A DNA stretch of 64,000 nucleotides from Squalus acanthias (taxonomy: Eukaryota): NCBI GenBank assembly GCA_030390025.1, contig CM059432.1:99760001-99824000 (forward strand). Direction: 5' to 3'. How positions within the stretch are numbered: the first letter of the stretch is position 1; each line of letters opens with the position of its first letter. The position numbers and the translations under genes are program-made. The notes under the pieces were generated by a model. That model did no database searches, was not told the origin of the DNA, and saw only the letters and a program-made list of their open reading frames with translations. Positions 33,551 to 62,000 of the stretch are shown here, piece after piece.

Positions 33551-35092
33551 GAAATGTTTACTTTTATACGATATGTTTACTTATATATGATTCATTCCAT
33601 GGTACAATAGTCTGATAATGGAATGAAATAGTTCATTTTGCATAGCTAAAGCTACATGAACAGCGTGAACATAAATAACTGATAACAAGTAACTACGAAC
33701 AACTGAAGGCCGAGAATGGCAGGATAAGGATGGGAGAGATAGGAGGAAATCAGATGGGTGGGTCTTCAGAATGTATAAACAGAAAAGACATGTGAGGAAA
33801 AGCATGAGACCCCTTAGGGGAGGCCTTCATCTGAAAGTTAAGACAAAGAACTCGACATACCATTGGGCACCTTGTCTTAAGGGGAACCTCTATAGGTTAA
33901 ATGGTCCTGTCCATATTCTACCCCAGGCCCACCCCTAAGAAGAGTATAAAAGAAAGACCCAAAAAGCCCTTAGCTCAGATGGTGAAGTGGAGAGCTTCCA
34001 AGGGTGATCAATGGTCTAACACTCTTCCGAGGGTGGAACCATGCTGACCCTAGTTTAACACTCCTGGTGATTCTAGAAGAAAGGTAGAGAGGGAGAAAAG
34101 CTGTAAGCCGAAGAGTTGTTCGTGCCATCTGTCCGATCGGGACCGGTACCAGCTGTTTGTCATGATCGTATGTTTTTACTGTATAACTAGTGTGTTATAT
34201 TCCATCTTAAACTCTGATTAAACACAATATACCAACCATATTTGTTTGCACTCGATCCTGATTATTTGAAAGACCAGAGATAATCTAATCTCTACATATA
34301 ACACAAGAATCATGCATGCTAAACAGTGGAAGCAGCAAGCTATAGACAGAGCTAGCGATCCCACAACCAATGGATCAGATTAAAGCTCTGCAGTCCTGCC
34401 ACATCCCGTCGTGAATGGTGGTGGACCATTAAACAACTAACGGGAGGAGGAGGCTCTATGAATATCCCCATCCTCAATGATGTTGGGGCCGAGCACGCGA
34501 GTGCAAAAGACAAGGCTGAAGCGTTTGCAACCATCTTCAGCCAGAAGTGCCGAGTGGATGATCCATATCGGTCTCCTCCTGAGGTCCCCACCATCACAGA
34601 AGCCAGTCTTCAGCCAATTCGATTCACTCCACGTGATATCAAGCAACGGCTGAGCACACTGGATACAGCAAAGGCTGTGGGCCCTGACAACATCCCGGCT
34701 GTAGTGCTGAAGATTTGTGCTCCAGAAATGGCCGCGCCTCTAGCCAAGCTGTCCCAGTACAGTTATAACACTGGCATCTACCCGACAATGTAGAAAATTG
34801 CCCAGATATGTCCTGTCCACAAAAAGCAGGACAAATCCAATCTGGCTTAGAAGGTGTCATCGACAGTGCTATTAAGCGGCATTTACTCACCAATAACCTG
34901 CTTACCAATGCTCAGTTTAGGTTCCGCCAGGACCACCTGGTTCAAGATCTTATTGCACCTTGGTTCAAACATGGATAAATGAGCTGAATTCTTGAGGTGA
35001 GCTGAGAGTGACTGCCGTTGACATCAAGGCAGCATTTGACCGAGTGTGGCATCAAAAAGCCCTAATAAAACTGAGGTCAATGTGAATGCGGG

Positions 35093-35186
35093 GCTCTAGT
35101 GGCGCAATCGGTTAGCGCACGGTACTTATATGACAGTACAGGCTCGGGAAATGCCGAGGTTGTGAGTTCGAGCCTCGCCTAGAGCA
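35093..35186 (+). tRNA. tRNA-Ile-TAT: tRNA-Ile (anticodon TAT) with 20-nt intron (35131-35150); probably a retroposed pre-tRNA copy
   Basis: Acceptor GCTCTAG/CTAGAGC, D stem GCGC/GCGC, anticodon stem CGGTA/TGCCG, TAT at 35127-35129, intron after position 37, T arm GTGAG-TTCGAGC-CTCGC. Confidence 0.92.
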
Positions 35187-35199
35187 TCAAGTCGTTTGT

Positions 35200-35633
35200 G
35201 GGCAACACGGTGGCATAGTGGTTAGCACTGGTGCCTCACAGCGCCAGAGACCCGGGTTCGAATCTGACCTCGGGTGACTGTCTGTGTGGAGTTTGCACAT
35301 TCTCCCCGTGTCTGCGTGGGTTTCCTCCGGGTGCTCCGGTTTCCTCCCACAGTCCAAAAATGTGTGGGTTAGGTTGATTTGGCTATGATAAATTGACCCT
35401 TAGTGTTAGGGGGGATTAAATATGTGGGGTTATGGGGATAGGATGGGATATGTTAGGGGGAATTAAATGCGTGGGGTTACGGGGGTAGGGTGGGATGTGA
35501 GTACTGTGGGGATTGGGGCAGGGACAGGGTGCTGGATTTGGATGATCAGCCATGATCGTATTGAATGGCGGAGCAGGCTCGACGGGCCGAATGGCCTACT
35601 CCTGCTCCTAGATTCTATGTTTCTATGTTTCTA
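35200..35633 (+). mobile_element. HE1-type V-SINE with CR1-derived 3' tail
   Basis: tRNA head (TGGCATAGTGG, GGTTCGAATC), V-domain GTGGAGTTTGCACATTCTCCCCGTGTCTGCGTGGGTTTCCTCCGGGTGCTCCGGTTTCCTCCCAC, tail matching the CR1 3'UTR at 61395-61485. Confidence 0.9.
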
Positions 35634-36148
35634 TGGAATCATGGGAAATTCTCCACTGGCTGGAGTCATACCTAGCACAAACGAAGATGGTTGTGGTTGT
35701 TGGAGGCCAATCATCTCAACCCCAGGACATCACTGCAGGAGTACCTCAGGGCAGTGTCCTAGGTCCAACCAACTTCAGTTGCTTCATAATAGGGTCAAAA
35801 GTGGGGATGTTCACTGTTGGTTGCAAGGATTACACAATGTTCAGTTCCATTTGCAACTCTTCAGATAATGAAGCAGCCCGTGCCCACATGCAACAAGAGC
35901 TGGACAATATTGGCTGGGGCTGATAAGTGGCAAGTTACATTTCCGACATTCAAGTGCCAGGCAATGACCATCTCCAACAAGAGAGAGTCTAGCCACCTCC
36001 TCTTGACATTCAATGAGATTACCATCGCCGAATCCCCCACCATTAACATCCTGGGGGTCACCATTGACCAGAAAATTAACTGGACCAGCCACATAAATAC
36101 TGTGGCAACAAGAGCAGGTCAGAGGCTGGGTATTCTCATAGAGTCATA

Positions 36149-37040
36149 GGGGAAAAATTCAGTTGCGCCCCATTTGGGGCGCAAATATCGTCCGGGCGCA
36201 AAGATTAGCGCCTGGCACTAATTATCGCCACTGACTGGAAACTTCACTTTTAACGCCCCGGGAGGTGATTGGAGCGCTAAATCAGGCGCTACACACCTGT
36301 CTTAAGGCGCAAAGGCCGAGGAGTGAGGCGCTAACTCAGAGCGCTGGCGAAGCTCATGTAATGTCAGTCAGCAATGGAACACACACACAATGGCACGGGC
36401 CAGTCCTTAAAGGGGATGGTTGATCTTGCATTCCATCCACATCCTGCTCATTGAAGCCTTGAATCTCGGCCTGGAGAGACCTGCACATCAAATCTGCTGG
36501 AAAGAACAATGGAGAGTACCAGGCAAAGAGCTCAGAGTGCAGCCCCCACAGTCTCTTCGAAATCGATACAAGGAATAGCAAATCAAAATGAACCTGCAAA
36601 GTGCTGCTCAGTACCCAAAACTCCTTCACACAACGTTGAATCTCTCCAGAAGTCTCTCTCACTCTCTCTCAGAATGCGTAGTTCAAAAATGGCACGAACA
36701 ATAAAAGGCAGGAAGCGGTCACCTTTAAATAGCGCTCCCCCTTTCCCTTCATGACAGAAGAACGCTCCTGTCAACCTGTCATTGCTAGCGTCAGGCGGTA
36801 AGGCAGGGGGCGCCACTCAATATCCGCTCTGGGGCGATACCGGGGCGTTGCACACTCGTCTGACGTCACGATCTGCCGGCGCAGGAGATCGTGGCGGTAG
36901 TGTTTAGCGCCGCCGCAAAATGTCTAGTTAATTTCGCGAGCGGCGCAAACTTCACCGCGCCCGGGCGCTAGCTGCTTTGCGCCCCATTAGCGCCCTCTTA
37001 AGGCGCTAATGGGAGGCGCAACCAACTGAATTTTTCCCCC
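36149..37040 (+). mobile_element. Non-autonomous Harbinger derivative (family B MITE, ~890 bp)
   Basis: TIR GGGGAAAAATTCAGTTG / CAACTGAATTTTTCCCCC, TSD ATA; ends shared with H3/H4; near-identical to 53565-54457. Confidence 0.92.
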
Positions 37041-57591: not shown

Positions 57592-58752
57592 CTAGAAGCG
57601 GCTTGCTATTAGTCGTTGACGGACGGCCCTTGCAGTTTGACCATTGTGGGCCGCCCTCCTGCCTTGGTGCTGCTGCTGATCATCGTCCTCGTCCTGTTCC
57701 TCCTCTTCCTCCTCCTCCTCTTGTGGTGCTGCAAGGCCTGGTGGCATTGGCTGCGTCCTGAGGATTGCCATGTTGTGCAACATGCAGCACACGACTACGA
57801 AGTTCGAAACTTGCTCAGGCGAGTACTGCAGGGCTCCTCCGGAATGGTCCAGACAGCGGAATCGTTGTTTCAGCACGCCGATTGTGCGCTCAATAATGTT
57901 CCTGGTTGCTTGATGGCTTTCCTGGTACCGCAGCTCAGCAGGGGTGTTTGGCGCACGGAGCGGTGTCATCAGCCAGGTGCTCAATGCGTACCCCTTGTCC
58001 CCCAGAAGCCAACCAACTGGCTGATGCGGTGCCTCGAAAATTTCTGCCACAGTACTCTGGCGCAGGATGAAAGCATCGTGGCAGCTGCCCGGATAGTGGG
58101 CATTGACAGCGAGAATCACCTGTCTGTGGTCACAGACCAACTGCACATTCAAGGAATGGAACCCCTTTCTGTTCCGGAACTCCTCTGCATTCTCTCGCGG
58201 AGCACGCAAAGCCACATGCGTGCAGTCAATGGCGCCCTGCACCATGGGGAAGCCCGCTACCCTCGCAAAGCCCATAGCACGGTCATGCTGCTTGTCTGGG
58301 GTCATAGGGAAAGAGATGAAGTCTCGTCTCCTTCTGAAGAGGGCATTGGTGACCTGCCGGATGCAGCGATGCACCGCAAACTGGGAGATATTGGCGAGGT
58401 CCCCAACAGCAACTTGGAATGAGCCAGTGGCGTAGAAGTTCAAAGCCATTGTGACCTTCACTGCCACCGACAGAGACGTCCTGGACCTCAGCTGAGGCTG
58501 CAGATCTGGCTGCAGCAGGTGGCAGAGCTCAGTGACAACCTCCTTGCTGAATCGCAGCCTTCACAAACACAGCTCCTCGGACATATGGATGTAGGAGAGC
58601 TGTTCACGATATACCCTGGGAGGGTAAGCTCTCCTGTACATGCGCCTGATGGCCCTCCTCCGTCTGGCCATCATTGCCACTCTCTGTCTGCGTCTCACTA
58701 TCCTCCGATTGAGCTGGAGCAGGACGACGCCCCCAATCATTGCAGCCCCCAT
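57592..58752 (-). pseudogene. Harbinger DDE transposase with one CGA>TGA nonsense at 58561-58563
   Basis: ORFs 58561-58752 and 57592-58467 are in one frame; GAIDCTHV, VCDH, HDAFIL, GDKGY and IERTIG motifs are all present. Confidence 0.92.
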
Positions 58753-59092: not shown

Positions 59093-62000
59093 CAATCTGC
59101 GCGCGCAGGTGGTCGCAGTGGTAAGCTTTTAGCGCCGCCGCACAATCTCAAGTTAAGTTCTCGAGCGGCGCAAACAGCGCTGCGCCCGGGCGTTAGCGGC
59201 TTAACGCCCCATTAGCGCCCTCTTAAGGCGCTAACGGGAGGCACAACCAACTGAATTTTTCCCCCTCAGAGACTAGGGTCCTGAATTTAAATAAAGGAAA
59301 CTTGGATGGTATGAGGTGCGAGTTGGCTAGGATGGATTGGGGAATGTTAATTAAAGGGTTGACGGTGGATAGGCAATGGTAAACATTTAAAGATCGCATG
59401 GATGAACTACAGAATTTGTTCATCCCTGTTTGGCATAAAAATAAAACAAAAAAGGTGACTCAACCGTGGCTAACAAGGGAAATTAGGGATAGCATAAGAT
59501 CCAAGGAGAGGACATATAAATTGGCCAGAAAAAGCAGCAAACCTGAGGATTGGGAGCAGTTTAGGATTCAGCAAAGGAGGACAAAGGGATTAATTAAGAG
59601 GGGGGAAATAGAGTATGAGAGTAAGCTTGCTGGTAACATAAAAACTGACTGTAAAAGCTTCTATAGATATGTGAAGAGAAAAAGATTGGTTAAGTCAAGC
59701 GTAGGTCCCTTGCTGTCAGAATCAGGGGAATTTATATTGGGGAACAAAGATTGGCTGACCAATTAAATACATACTTTGGTTCTGTCTTCACAAAGGAGGA
59801 CACAAATAAACTCCCAGAGATGTCGGGGAACATTGGGTCTAATGAGAGGGTGAAACTGAATGAAATCAGTATTTGTAGGGAAATGGTGTTAGGGAAATTG
59901 ATGGGATTGAAGGCCGATAAATTCCCAGGGCCTGATAATCTACATCCAAGGGTACTTAAGGAAGTGGCCCTAGAAATAGTAGATGCATTGCTGGTCATCT
60001 TCCAAAATTCAATAGACTCTGGAACAGTACCCATGGATTGGAGGGTAGCTAATGTAACCTCACTATTTAAAAAAGGTGATAGAGAGAAAACGGGGAATTA
60101 TAGACCGGTAAGCCTGACATCGGTAGTGGGGAAAATGCAGGAGTCCTTTAAAAAAGATGTAATAGCAGAGCACTTGGAAAACAGTGACAGGATCGGACAA
60201 AGTCAACATGGATTTACAAAAGGTAATACTGGAATTTTTTGAGGATGTAACTGGTAGAATGGATAAGGGAGAACCAGTGGATGTAGTGTATTTGGACTTT
60301 TAGAAGGCTTTCGATAAGGTCCCGCATAAGAGATTAGCGTGCAAAGTTAAAGCACATGGGATTGGGGGTAAGGTACTGACTTGGATAGAGAACTGGTTGG
60401 CAGACAGGAAGCAAAGAGTTGGAATAAACGGATCTTTTTCCGAGTGGCAGGCCATGACTAGTGGGGTACCTCAGGGATCGGTGCTAGGACCCCAGCTATT
60501 CACAATATATATTAATGAGCTAGACGAGGGAACTAGATGTAATATCTCCAAGTTTGCAGACGACACAAAGCTGAGTGGGCATGTGTGCTGTGAGGAGGAT
60601 GCAGAGAAACTCCAGTATGATTTGGACAGGTTGGGTGATTGGGCAGATGCATGGCAGATGCAGTATAATGTGGATAAATGCGAGGTTATCCACTTTGGTG
60701 GCAAAAACAGGAAGATAGATTATTATCTGAACAACAATAGATTGGGAAAAAGGGGAAGTGCAATGAGACCTGGGTGTCCTTGTGCACTAGTCGCTGAAGG
60801 TAAGCATGCAGGTGCAGCAAGCGGTTAAGAAGGCAAATGGTATGTTGGCCTTCATAGCGAGAGGATTTGAGTACAGGAGCAAGGATGTCTTGCTGCAGTT
60901 GTACAGGGCCTTGGTGAGACCACACCTTGAGTATTGTGTGCAGTTTTGGTCGCCTTATCTGAGGAAGGATGTTCTTGCCATGGAGGGAGTGCAGCGAGGA
61001 TTCACCAGACTGATACCTGGGATGGCAGGAATGATGTATGAAGAGAGATTGGGACGATTGGGCTTGTATTCGCTAGAGTTTAGAAGAATGAGAGGGGATC
61101 TCATTGAAACTTATAAAATTCTAACAGGACTAGACAGACTAGATGCAGGAAGGATGTTCCTGATGGCGGGGGAGTCCAGACCCAGGGGTCACAGTCTAAG
61201 GATAAGGGATAAGCCATTTAGGACTGAGATGAGGAGGAATTTCTTCACCCAGAGAGTGGTGAAGCTGTGGAATTCTCTACCACAGAAGGCAGTTGAGGCC
61301 AATTCATTAAATATATTCAAGAAGGAGTTAGATATATTCCTTAAGGCTAAAGGGATCAAGGGATATGGGGAGAAAGCAGGGACAGGGTACTGAATTTGGA
61401 TGATCAGCCATGATCTCATTAAATGGCGGAACAGGCTCGAGGGGCCGAAAGGCCTACTCCTGCTCCTATCTTCTATGTTTCTATGTGACCAGTCCATTGA
61501 TATCTTCCTGCATGCTACAGCTTTCTTCCTCACTATCAACCACACGACCAATTTTTGTATCATCTGCAAACTTCTTAATCATTGAAGTCTAAATCATTGA
61601 TATATATCACAAAAAGCAAGGGACCTAGTACTGAGTCCTGCGAAACCCCACTGGAAACAGCCTTCCAGTCACAAAAACAGTTGTCAACCATTACCCTTTA
61701 CTTCCTGCCACTGAGCCAATTTTGGATCTAATTTGCCACTTTCCCTTGGTTCCCATGGGCTTTTACTTTTCTGACCAGTCTGCCATGTGGGGCCTTAACA
61801 AAAGCCTTGCTAAAATCCATGTAGACTACATCAAACGTGTTCCCTCAGCGACCCTCCTTGTTACCTCCTCAAAAAATTCAATCAAGTTAATCAGACACGA
61901 CATCCCTTAACAAACCCATGCTGACTGTCCTTGATTAATCGATGCTTTTCTAAATGATGATTAATACTGTCCCTCAGAATTTTTTCCAATAATTTGCTCA

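What the first reader, a model, noticed from the sequence alone, without database searches (positions are those of the whole stretch)
35088..35640. Unspliced pre-tRNA-Ile(TAT) fused to an HE1 V-SINE and apparently retroposed as one unit
Seen: a fully base-pairing tRNA-Ile(TAT) still holding its 20-nt intron, with a 5-nt leader (GCGGG) and a 13-nt trailer containing only TTT (no T4 Pol III terminator), runs straight into an HE1 SINE with a CR1 tail. The block sits inside the RT region of an old LINE, which resumes on both sides with a short imperfect duplication (aatgtgaat / atggaat). Inference: either Pol III read-through from a real tRNA gene into a downstream SINE or an RT template switch produced a dimeric SINE with an intron-containing head. 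This could be a new composite SINE family and a route for spreading functional intron-containing tRNA genes.
Basis: partly seen in the sequence, partly recalled or inferred. Interest (0 to 1): 0.7.

Follow-up and report, generated by a model that had tools for sequence, protein, structure and literature searches.

The report
Unprocessed tRNA captured by jumping SINE
A raw, unspliced tRNA transcript sits fused to the front of a young SINE repeat as one insertion, likely because the copying enzyme jumped from one RNA to the other; it is a single copy, not a new repeat family, but this genome holds at least 19 such tRNA-SINE fusions made from many different tRNAs.

Summary
Observation confirmed with small corrections. 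tRNA-Ile(TAT) 35093-35186 keeps its 20-nt intron, leader and trailer, then joins a SINE identical to siblings over 426 nt whose tail is a CR1 LINE 3' end. The block splits an older LINE with a 4-bp (or 2-bp) duplication, not 9 bp. Donor genes are tandem arrays ending in T4 with no SINE behind them, so read-through is not supported. The junction is single-copy and has no daughters, so it is not a family. It is one of at least 19 independent pre-tRNA/SINE insertions (12 full-length isotypes; five Ile-TAT, each with its own junction). All are sense-oriented and end at a T-run; where donors were read, that run is the Pol III terminator. None found is CCA-ended or antisense. Pre-tRNA and U6 heads also sit on truncated LINE ends. 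Best reading: template jumping by a CR1-group reverse transcriptase onto the oligo-U end of primary Pol III transcripts (inferred, about 0.77). This is a variant of known U6/SINE chimeras; I found no paper on the pre-tRNA form. The scan noted the same class earlier in another genome (e1-8159181). Expression and function untested.

The parts
34351..35087 (+). Host LINE, decayed RT-region piece 5' of the insertion (outer limit approximate)
   Evidence: Broken frames; weak BLASTP match to the CR1 ORF at 59694-60239, 26%, E 9e-6; mean 87% to 29 paralogues near the site. No Pfam hit on the piece tested.
35084..35087 (+). Left copy of 4-bp target duplication GAAT (last 2 nt also match the donor's leader)
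   Evidence: Empty-site paralogues, e.g. L033 and L039 with the same T variant
35086..35092 (+). Pre-tRNA 5' leader (7 nt matching the donor, 5 nt unambiguous)
   Evidence: Match to array genes begins here; the same start is seen in chimeras L096 and L157
35093..35186 (+). tRNA-Ile(TAT) with 20-nt intron at 35131-35150; differs from array genes at tRNA positions 26 and 64
35187..35197 (+). Pre-tRNA 3' trailer ending in TTT, where the donors have their T4 terminator; one substitution against the donor
35198..35199 (+). Two junction nucleotides (GT): SINE leader or non-templated addition
   Evidence: Also at the junctions of L095, L096 and L108 and before 8 of 42 plain SINE head matches
35200..35635 (+). 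Full-length young tRNA-headed SINE (HE1/V-SINE by recall) with CR1-derived 3' end and (TTTCTATG)n tail
   Evidence: 100% over 426 nt to 6 siblings; tail aligns to the LINE end near 61376-61486; 3' stem-loop, z -2.7
35636..35639 (+). Right copy of target duplication GAAT
35636..36125 (+). Host LINE resumes (outer limit approximate)
   Evidence: mean 89% to 29 paralogues

Best explanation
This is a single-copy chimeric retrocopy in which an unspliced pre-tRNA-Ile(TAT) is joined to a full-length SINE, likely made when a CR1-group reverse transcriptase jumped from the SINE RNA to the oligo-U end of the pre-tRNA. Steps. (a) Inferred: the CR1 enzyme bound the SINE's LINE-derived 3' end and primed at a nick inside an old LINE. 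(b) Inferred: it copied the SINE to its 5' end, added or read 2 extra nucleotides, and continued on the 3' end of a primary Pol III transcript from the Ile-TAT tandem arrays. (c) Shown: the captured piece runs from a short leader through the intron to the terminator T-run and no further. (d) Shown: the block is bounded by one 2-4-bp duplication. (e) Shown: the same design recurs at 19 or more loci with different tRNAs, junctions and SINE subtypes, and none has daughters found. (f) Inferred: the chimeras do not spread because an intact tRNA head would be cut off by RNase P and RNase Z, or because the copies are silent.
For: Donor arrays (1638-bp period) share leader, intron and trailer, end in T4 and have no SINE behind them. 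The junction has 1 copy among 11,040 SINE heads of this spelling. Isotype-blind patterns: 12 of 18 hits and 16 of 23 hits are tRNA+trailer+T-run+SINE. Total 19 distinct insertions. Ser chimera L260 carries a trailer of about 95 nt that stops exactly at the donor's first T4; Asp L095 and Arg L097 also match donor leader and trailer. CCA-ended chimeras: 0. Antisense control: 0 tRNAs in 9 hits. For 8 of 17 chimeras tested, paralogues join the two flanks with a 2-6-nt overlap. Pre-tRNA-Lys and U6 also sit on 5'-truncated LINE ends, and three-part chains of Pol III RNAs occur. Precedent: U6/Mon-1 and U6/AnolisSINE2 chimeras with 1-9-bp TSDs (PMC4476161, section 10); template jumping by R2 RT needs non-templated addition (PMC8857657, abstract and passages).
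Against: Sequence cannot separate template jumping from RNA ligation before copying, or from joining of two separately made cDNAs. Jumping is shown in vitro for R2 RT, not for a CR1 RT, in the papers I read. For 9 of 17 chimeras no convincing empty-site paralogue was in my small library, although several show 5-6-nt direct repeats by eye. Donors were read for only 4 isotypes in depth (Ile, Ser, Asp, Arg-TCG). The head has 3 differences in 112 nt from the nearest donor read while the SINE has 0 in 426 (Fisher p 0.009); this is unexplained. The window's GT could be read as the donor's bases after the T-run with one T lost. Step (f) has no direct support.
Confidence: 0.77

Rival explanations
1. 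The pre-tRNA and the SINE RNA were ligated first (RtcB-type, as proposed for U6/L1), and the fused RNA was then retroposed.
For: Gives the same sense-oriented, end-to-end product; named as a route for U6/L1 chimeras (bioRxiv 10.1101/2025.02.02.635956, passages). Intron-bearing pre-tRNAs meet the tRNA splicing ligase; 6 of 16 isotype-blind hits bear introns.
Against: From established knowledge, not tested here: primary Pol III transcripts end in 3'-OH and begin with a triphosphate, which RtcB does not join. Junctions carry 0-4 variable letters (none, A, G, GT, AT, GA, AGT), which fits non-templated addition. Most captured tRNAs have no intron, and introns are retained, not opened.
Confidence: 0.09
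2. A separate cDNA of the pre-tRNA was patched onto the 5' end of the new SINE insertion by host repair during 5' joining.
For: Plain SINE copies often carry extra letters at their 5' junction. A 2-nt match between leader and target is seen in 3 of 5 Ile chimeras.
Against: All tRNA heads found are in sense orientation and end at a T-run; the antisense control found 0 in 9 hits. Patching would be expected to give both orientations and ragged ends.
Confidence: 0.07
3. Pol III read through a leaky terminator of a real tRNA gene into a downstream SINE, and that dimeric RNA was retroposed.
For: The window copy has only TTT; one native array copy has a broken T-run (L202). Arrays may be collapsed in the assembly, and tRNA position 64 is G in two chimeras but in no native copy, so an unseen donor is possible.
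Against: 0 of 180 native tRNA calls (104 overlapping loci, not de-duplicated) have a SINE head within 120 nt. Five Ile chimeras have five different junctions and different SINE subtypes, which would need five unseen master loci, plus others for 11 more isotypes.
Confidence: 0.03
4. It is a member of a new composite SINE family with an intron-containing tRNA head.
For: The unit has intact A and B boxes, a CR1-type tail, and no T4 before 36248, so it could in principle be transcribed and copied.
Against: Junction in 1 copy; a trailer+SINE pattern gives 5 hits, all full chimeras and one a locus duplicate; no shared junction among the Ile chimeras.
Confidence: 0.02
5. Two independent insertions landed at the same spot.
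For: Solo pre-tRNA retrocopies exist (L186, Ile-TAT with a 13-bp direct repeat).
Against: Chance of a same-strand SINE head within 10 nt is about 1.5e-5 per copy, yet 5 of the 6 clearly retroposed Ile-TAT copies read carry one. One duplication bounds the whole block.
Confidence: 0.02

Closest known systems
U6/SINE and U6/L2 template-switch chimeras of platypus (Mon-1) and Anolis (AnolisSINE2); Doucet et al. 2015, PMC4476161 (section 10 read whole, plus passages)
   Same: A Pol III RNA in sense orientation 5' of a SINE or LINE end moved by a stringent LINE; short TSDs (1-9 bp); one-off events.
   Different: Head is a whole primary pre-tRNA (leader, intron, trailer) of many isotypes, mostly full length, and carries its own internal promoter; partner is a CR1-tailed SINE.
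tRNA/LINE-1 chimeras of the human genome; bioRxiv 10.1101/2025.02.02.635956 (passages)
   Same: tRNA sequence co-inserted with a retroelement under one TSD; about 21 loci.
   Different: Those are mostly tRNA halves, antisense, with 9-19-bp TSDs, and are ascribed to twin priming; here full precursors, sense, 2-6-nt overlaps.
Pre-tRNA and tailless retropseudogenes (Schmitz et al. 2004; seen only as cited in PMC4476161 and PMC4494074)
   Same: Unprocessed tRNA used as an RT template, pointing to recruitment in the nucleus.
   Different: Those are L1-made solo copies; here the pre-tRNA is the second template behind a SINE. L186 looks like the solo kind.
SINE head addition: tRNA onto a 7SL SINE, 5S onto a tRNA SINE, U1/U2 onto SINEU (PMC4494074 and PMC4824008, passages)
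   Same: A new RNA head added 5' of an existing SINE, ascribed to template switching.
   Different: Those became multi-copy families; these are single copies, that is the raw first step.
HE1 (V-SINE) with partner LINE HER1 of sharks and rays (listed in PMC3747384 table and PMC4824008 introduction; sequence match is recalled)
   Same: tRNA-like head, central domain, 3' end shared with a CR1-type LINE.
   Different: Identity to the published consensus was not testable; at least two tail types occur behind the same head in this genome.

Membership tests
Template-switch chimeric retrocopy (U6/L1, U6/SINE type) | Cellular RNA copy 5' of a retroelement 3' end, same orientation | tested here: met
Template-switch chimeric retrocopy (U6/L1, U6/SINE type) | One target duplication around the whole unit, none between the parts | tested here: met
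   4-bp (or 2-bp) duplication against empty-site paralogues
Template-switch chimeric retrocopy (U6/L1, U6/SINE type) | Captured piece bounded by RNA ends, without donor genomic flanks | tested here: met
   Match to donor covers only leader to T-run; same for Ser, Asp, Arg chimeras
Template-switch chimeric retrocopy (U6/L1, U6/SINE type) | Join made during reverse transcription rather than by RNA ligation | not testable with these tools
   Needs a biochemical or cell assay
SINE family (composite or dimeric) | Multiple dispersed copies sharing one junction from a master copy | tested here: not met
   1 copy; no daughters
SINE family (composite or dimeric) | Pol III transcription of the whole unit | not tested
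   No run held half of the junction words; no reads were laid
HE1 / V-SINE (SINE part only) | 3' end shared with a CR1-type LINE | tested here: met
   (RVT_1, E 8e-20, upstream of the matching end)
HE1 / V-SINE (SINE part only) | 80-bp V-domain and identity to the HE1 consensus | not testable with these tools
Functional tRNA gene | Cloverleaf, A and B boxes, intron after position 37 | tested here: met
Functional tRNA gene | T4 or longer terminator close behind the gene | tested here: not met
   First T4 at 36248, about 1,060 nt downstream
Functional tRNA gene | Expressed, spliced and charged product | not tested
   No RNA data

The most novel reading that the evidence does not exclude
CR1-group reverse transcriptases in this lineage routinely jump onto the oligo-U ends of primary Pol III transcripts, scattering promoter-intact, intron-retaining tRNA genes that are transcribed as tRNA-SINE dicistrons and cut apart by RNase P and Z. 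That would be a retroposition route for new working tRNA genes and a live series of the first step of SINE head replacement, with tRNA processing as the filter that stops intact heads from founding families.
Probability: 0.2. Interest if true: 0.68.

Novelty: new variant of a known kind. Interest (0 to 1): 0.46.

Why it matters
SINE families are thought to gain new heads by template switching, but the evidence is mostly old, finished families. This genome holds a young series of the raw products, with donors still in the assembly. It shows which RNA is taken (the primary transcript, not the CCA-ended tRNA), marks Pol III start and stop sites of tRNA genes in DNA, and makes testable why intact tRNA heads have not founded families here. 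It also warns that dispersed high-scoring tRNA calls in such genomes can be retro-chimeras. The single locus given is ordinary within that series.

Tried and rejected
1. 'Pre-tRNAs are captured only by full-length SINEs': rejected. Among 22 dispersed Lys-CTT places fetched on C1-C15 and C22, L411, L412, L402 and L422 are pre-tRNA + truncated LINE end, L418 a partial one, and L419 a tRNA-U6-tRNA chain.
2. 'Intron-bearing pre-tRNAs are preferred': not established. Ile-TAT 4 of 138 against Asp+Lys 3 of 549 gives p 0.03, and p 0.10 without the window itself; counting the Lys/LINE chimeras removes the gap.
3. 'Differences in the head mark tRNA modifications': no pattern across the chimeras with donors read; the change at position 26 is also a CpG change.
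4. Other RNAs before SINE heads that follow a T4: Rfam on 78 loci found only two tRNAs (L260, L308). These came from the first 100 of 278 listed matches; 3 loci already seen, 4 known chimeras and the last 4 rows were left out.
5. Unselected SINE heads: no tRNA head seen by eye in 40 loci.
6. Public runs: none held half of the junction words (best 0.28); no reads were laid, so polymorphism, orthologues and expression are open. No related genomes are held.
7. Non-tRNA hits dropped from the pattern counts: 6 of 18 (three SINE-SINE dimers, L092, L101; L104 is a tRNA 3' fragment judged by eye, below Rfam and ARAGORN thresholds, counted among the 19 but not among the 12), 2 of 3, 7 of 23. L114 is likewise a fragment judged by eye. 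My first label for L104 (Leu with intron) was wrong.
8. Ile-TAT census incomplete: 38 of 138 matches were not listed, and not all C2450 copies were read. T4-ended Ile copies with a non-native next base: 0.
9. Literature: 8 searches found no description of pre-tRNA/SINE chimeras; the library lacks most subscription papers, including the HE1 and dimeric-SINE originals, and bioRxiv supplements are closed. PMC13343379 (passages) has nothing on tRNA or HE1.

Full report
What is there. The window lies in G000, a 3.7-Gb assembly; a shark or ray is inferred from the recalled likeness of the SINE to HE1. ARAGORN and Rfam each find one tRNA in the window, tRNA-Ile(TAT) at 35093-35186, fully paired, 52.8 bits, with a 20-nt intron. 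It is followed by 11 nt of trailer ending in TTT, two junction letters, and a SINE from 35200 to 35635. The SINE is identical over 426 nt to six siblings elsewhere, so the insertion is young. Its 3' end aligns with the end of an RT-encoding LINE in this window and folds into a stem-loop.

The insertion site. Twenty-nine paralogues of the host LINE run straight across the site; two carry the same T variant as the window's left flank. Against them the duplication is an exact 4 bp (35084-35087 and 35636-35639). Two of those bases also match the donor's leader, so 2 bp is the lower reading. Sibling SINEs likewise show very short overlaps.

The donor. The best matches are tandem arrays with a 1638-bp unit on C2450 and C188; the match covers query 7-118 only, that is leader to T-run. 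These genes have the same leader, intron and trailer, end in T4, and have no SINE behind them. A pattern in the intron and 3' exon counts 138 Ile-TAT copies, 100 listed. Among those read, 54 sit in native-type flanks without a SINE. Over 104 overlapping native loci of several isotypes, 0 of 180 tRNA calls (not de-duplicated) have a SINE head within 120 nt. Read-through into a neighbouring SINE therefore has no source in the assembly.

Not a family. The junction pattern has one match, the window. A pattern for trailer plus SINE head has five: the window, three other Ile chimeras, and a duplicate of one of them with the same flank. No trailer-only daughters exist in that set.

A recurrent class. 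Isotype-blind patterns (T-loop, gap, T-run, SINE head) gave 18 and 23 hits; 12 and 16 are tRNA chimeras. With Ile-specific and T4 searches the total is 19 distinct insertions: Ile-TAT five times, Asp twice, Lys-CTT, Glu-TTC, Arg-TCG, Arg-TCT, Met, Phe, Gly-GCC, Leu-AAG, Ser-GCT, Ala-AGC, and two 3' fragments judged by eye. That is a lower bound, about 0.2% of the 11,040 heads with this spelling. Seven keep an intron. Each has its own 0-4 junction letters, and both SINE tail types occur. Where donors were read, the captured piece is the primary transcript: the Ser chimera has a trailer of about 95 nt ending at the donor's first T4, and Asp and Arg chimeras match donor leaders and trailers. Controls: 0 CCA-ended chimeras; 0 tRNAs in 9 antisense hits; no tRNA head seen in 40 unselected SINE loci. 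For 8 of 17 chimeras tested, paralogues join both flanks with a 2-6-nt overlap; for 9 no convincing paralogue was in my library. The chance of a same-strand SINE head within 10 nt is about 1.5e-5 per copy, yet 5 of 6 clearly retroposed Ile copies read have one.

Results against my first reading. I expected capture only by full-length SINEs. Dispersed Lys-CTT copies disproved this: four are pre-tRNA plus a truncated LINE end, and U6 shows the same. A preference for intron-bearing precursors is not established. The head of the window copy has 3 differences in 112 nt from the nearest donor read, against 0 in 426 for the SINE (p 0.009); one of them recurs in an independent chimera and in no native copy. 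I cannot say whether this is an unassembled donor or a copying artefact.

How it likely works. A CR1-group enzyme binds the SINE's LINE-derived end, primes at a nick, copies to the SINE's 5' end and jumps to the oligo-U 3' end of a nearby primary Pol III transcript, copying it to its start; the 5' end is then joined with a 2-nt match to the target. The boundaries, orientation and single duplication are shown; the jump is inferred. In vitro, R2 RT jumps between separate templates after adding non-templated bases (PMC8857657, abstract and passages), which fits the variable junction letters. Ligation before copying and patching of a separate cDNA remain possible. The copy keeps its A and B boxes but has no T4 until 36248; a transcript would be expected to be cut by RNase P and Z, which could release a tRNA and would also keep the chimera from spreading as a unit. 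This last step is inference only.

Comparison with what is known. It works like, and meets the sequence tests for, template-switch chimeric retrocopies: U6/Mon-1 and U6/AnolisSINE2 (PMC4476161, section 10). Human tRNA/L1 chimeras differ in being mostly antisense halves (bioRxiv 10.1101/2025.02.02.635956, passages). Head addition by template switching is proposed for several SINE families (PMC4494074, PMC4824008, passages). Eight searches found no account of whole pre-tRNA/SINE chimeras, within a library that lacks most subscription papers. HE1/HER1 is listed in PMC3747384 (table passage); the sequence identity to HE1 is recalled, not tested.

Verdict. Real feature, one insertion event, not read-through, not a family; one example of a recurrent capture of primary Pol III transcripts by CR1-group retroposition. 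New variant of a known kind. Interest 0.46. No read data were laid on the locus (one search found no run with half of its words), so polymorphism, orthologues and expression remain open.

Noticed in passing
L275 (G000:C17:68357462, minus) and L419 (G000:C14:50298080, minus): Three-part chains: U6 + 5S rRNA + a ferritin-like mRNA 3' piece (ferritin label by recall), and partial tRNA-Lys + U6 + a tRNA 3' piece. They suggest repeated jumps between small RNAs.
   Followed up: partly
L273, L274, L276, L277: Dispersed U6 copies: two fused to 5'-truncated LINE ends, two 3'-truncated with poly(A).
   Followed up: partly
L403-L409, L413-L417, L420, L421, L425, L426 (C1, C2, C4-C7, C10-C12, C14, C15, C29): About 15 dispersed tRNA-Lys(CTT) copies keep native-type flanks; those compared share up to about 1 kb on each side at 93-95% identity. 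This looks like a DNA-level mobile cassette carrying a tRNA gene; its ends were not found.
   Followed up: partly
window 35177; L157 and L197: tRNA position 64 is G in two independent Ile-TAT chimeras and in no native copy of the assembly. Unseen donor allele, RT error or RNA editing; unexplained.
   Followed up: partly
L097, L358-L362 (C4, C570, C2450): tRNA-Arg(TCG) genes with an intron of about 16 nt, native and chimeric. By recall, vertebrate Arg introns are usual in TCT, not TCG.
   Followed up: no
L098, L099, L105, L113: SINE-SINE dimers in which the first unit stops at the same point, 98 nt into the head: a small subfamily or a recurrent jump onto a short SINE transcript.
   Followed up: no
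L186 (G000:C9:103488677): Older solo intron-containing Ile-TAT copy between 13-bp direct repeats, no SINE: tailless-retropseudogene type.
   Followed up: partly
L002-L030 (G000:C2450): The 1638-bp tRNA-Ile array unit seems to be filled largely by a decayed LINE 5' region (read by eye).
   Followed up: no
L092, L249: The head of another tRNA-like repeat, ending in a T-run, lies directly before a SINE head; possibly the same capture with a different Pol III RNA.
   Followed up: no
window 57592-58560 (minus): 322-aa open frame with DDE_Tnp_4, E 5e-39: Harbinger-type transposase by recall.
   Followed up: no
window about 33700-34330: Stretch with a TATA-like box that may be a solo LTR, just 5' of the host LINE (by eye).
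   Followed up: no
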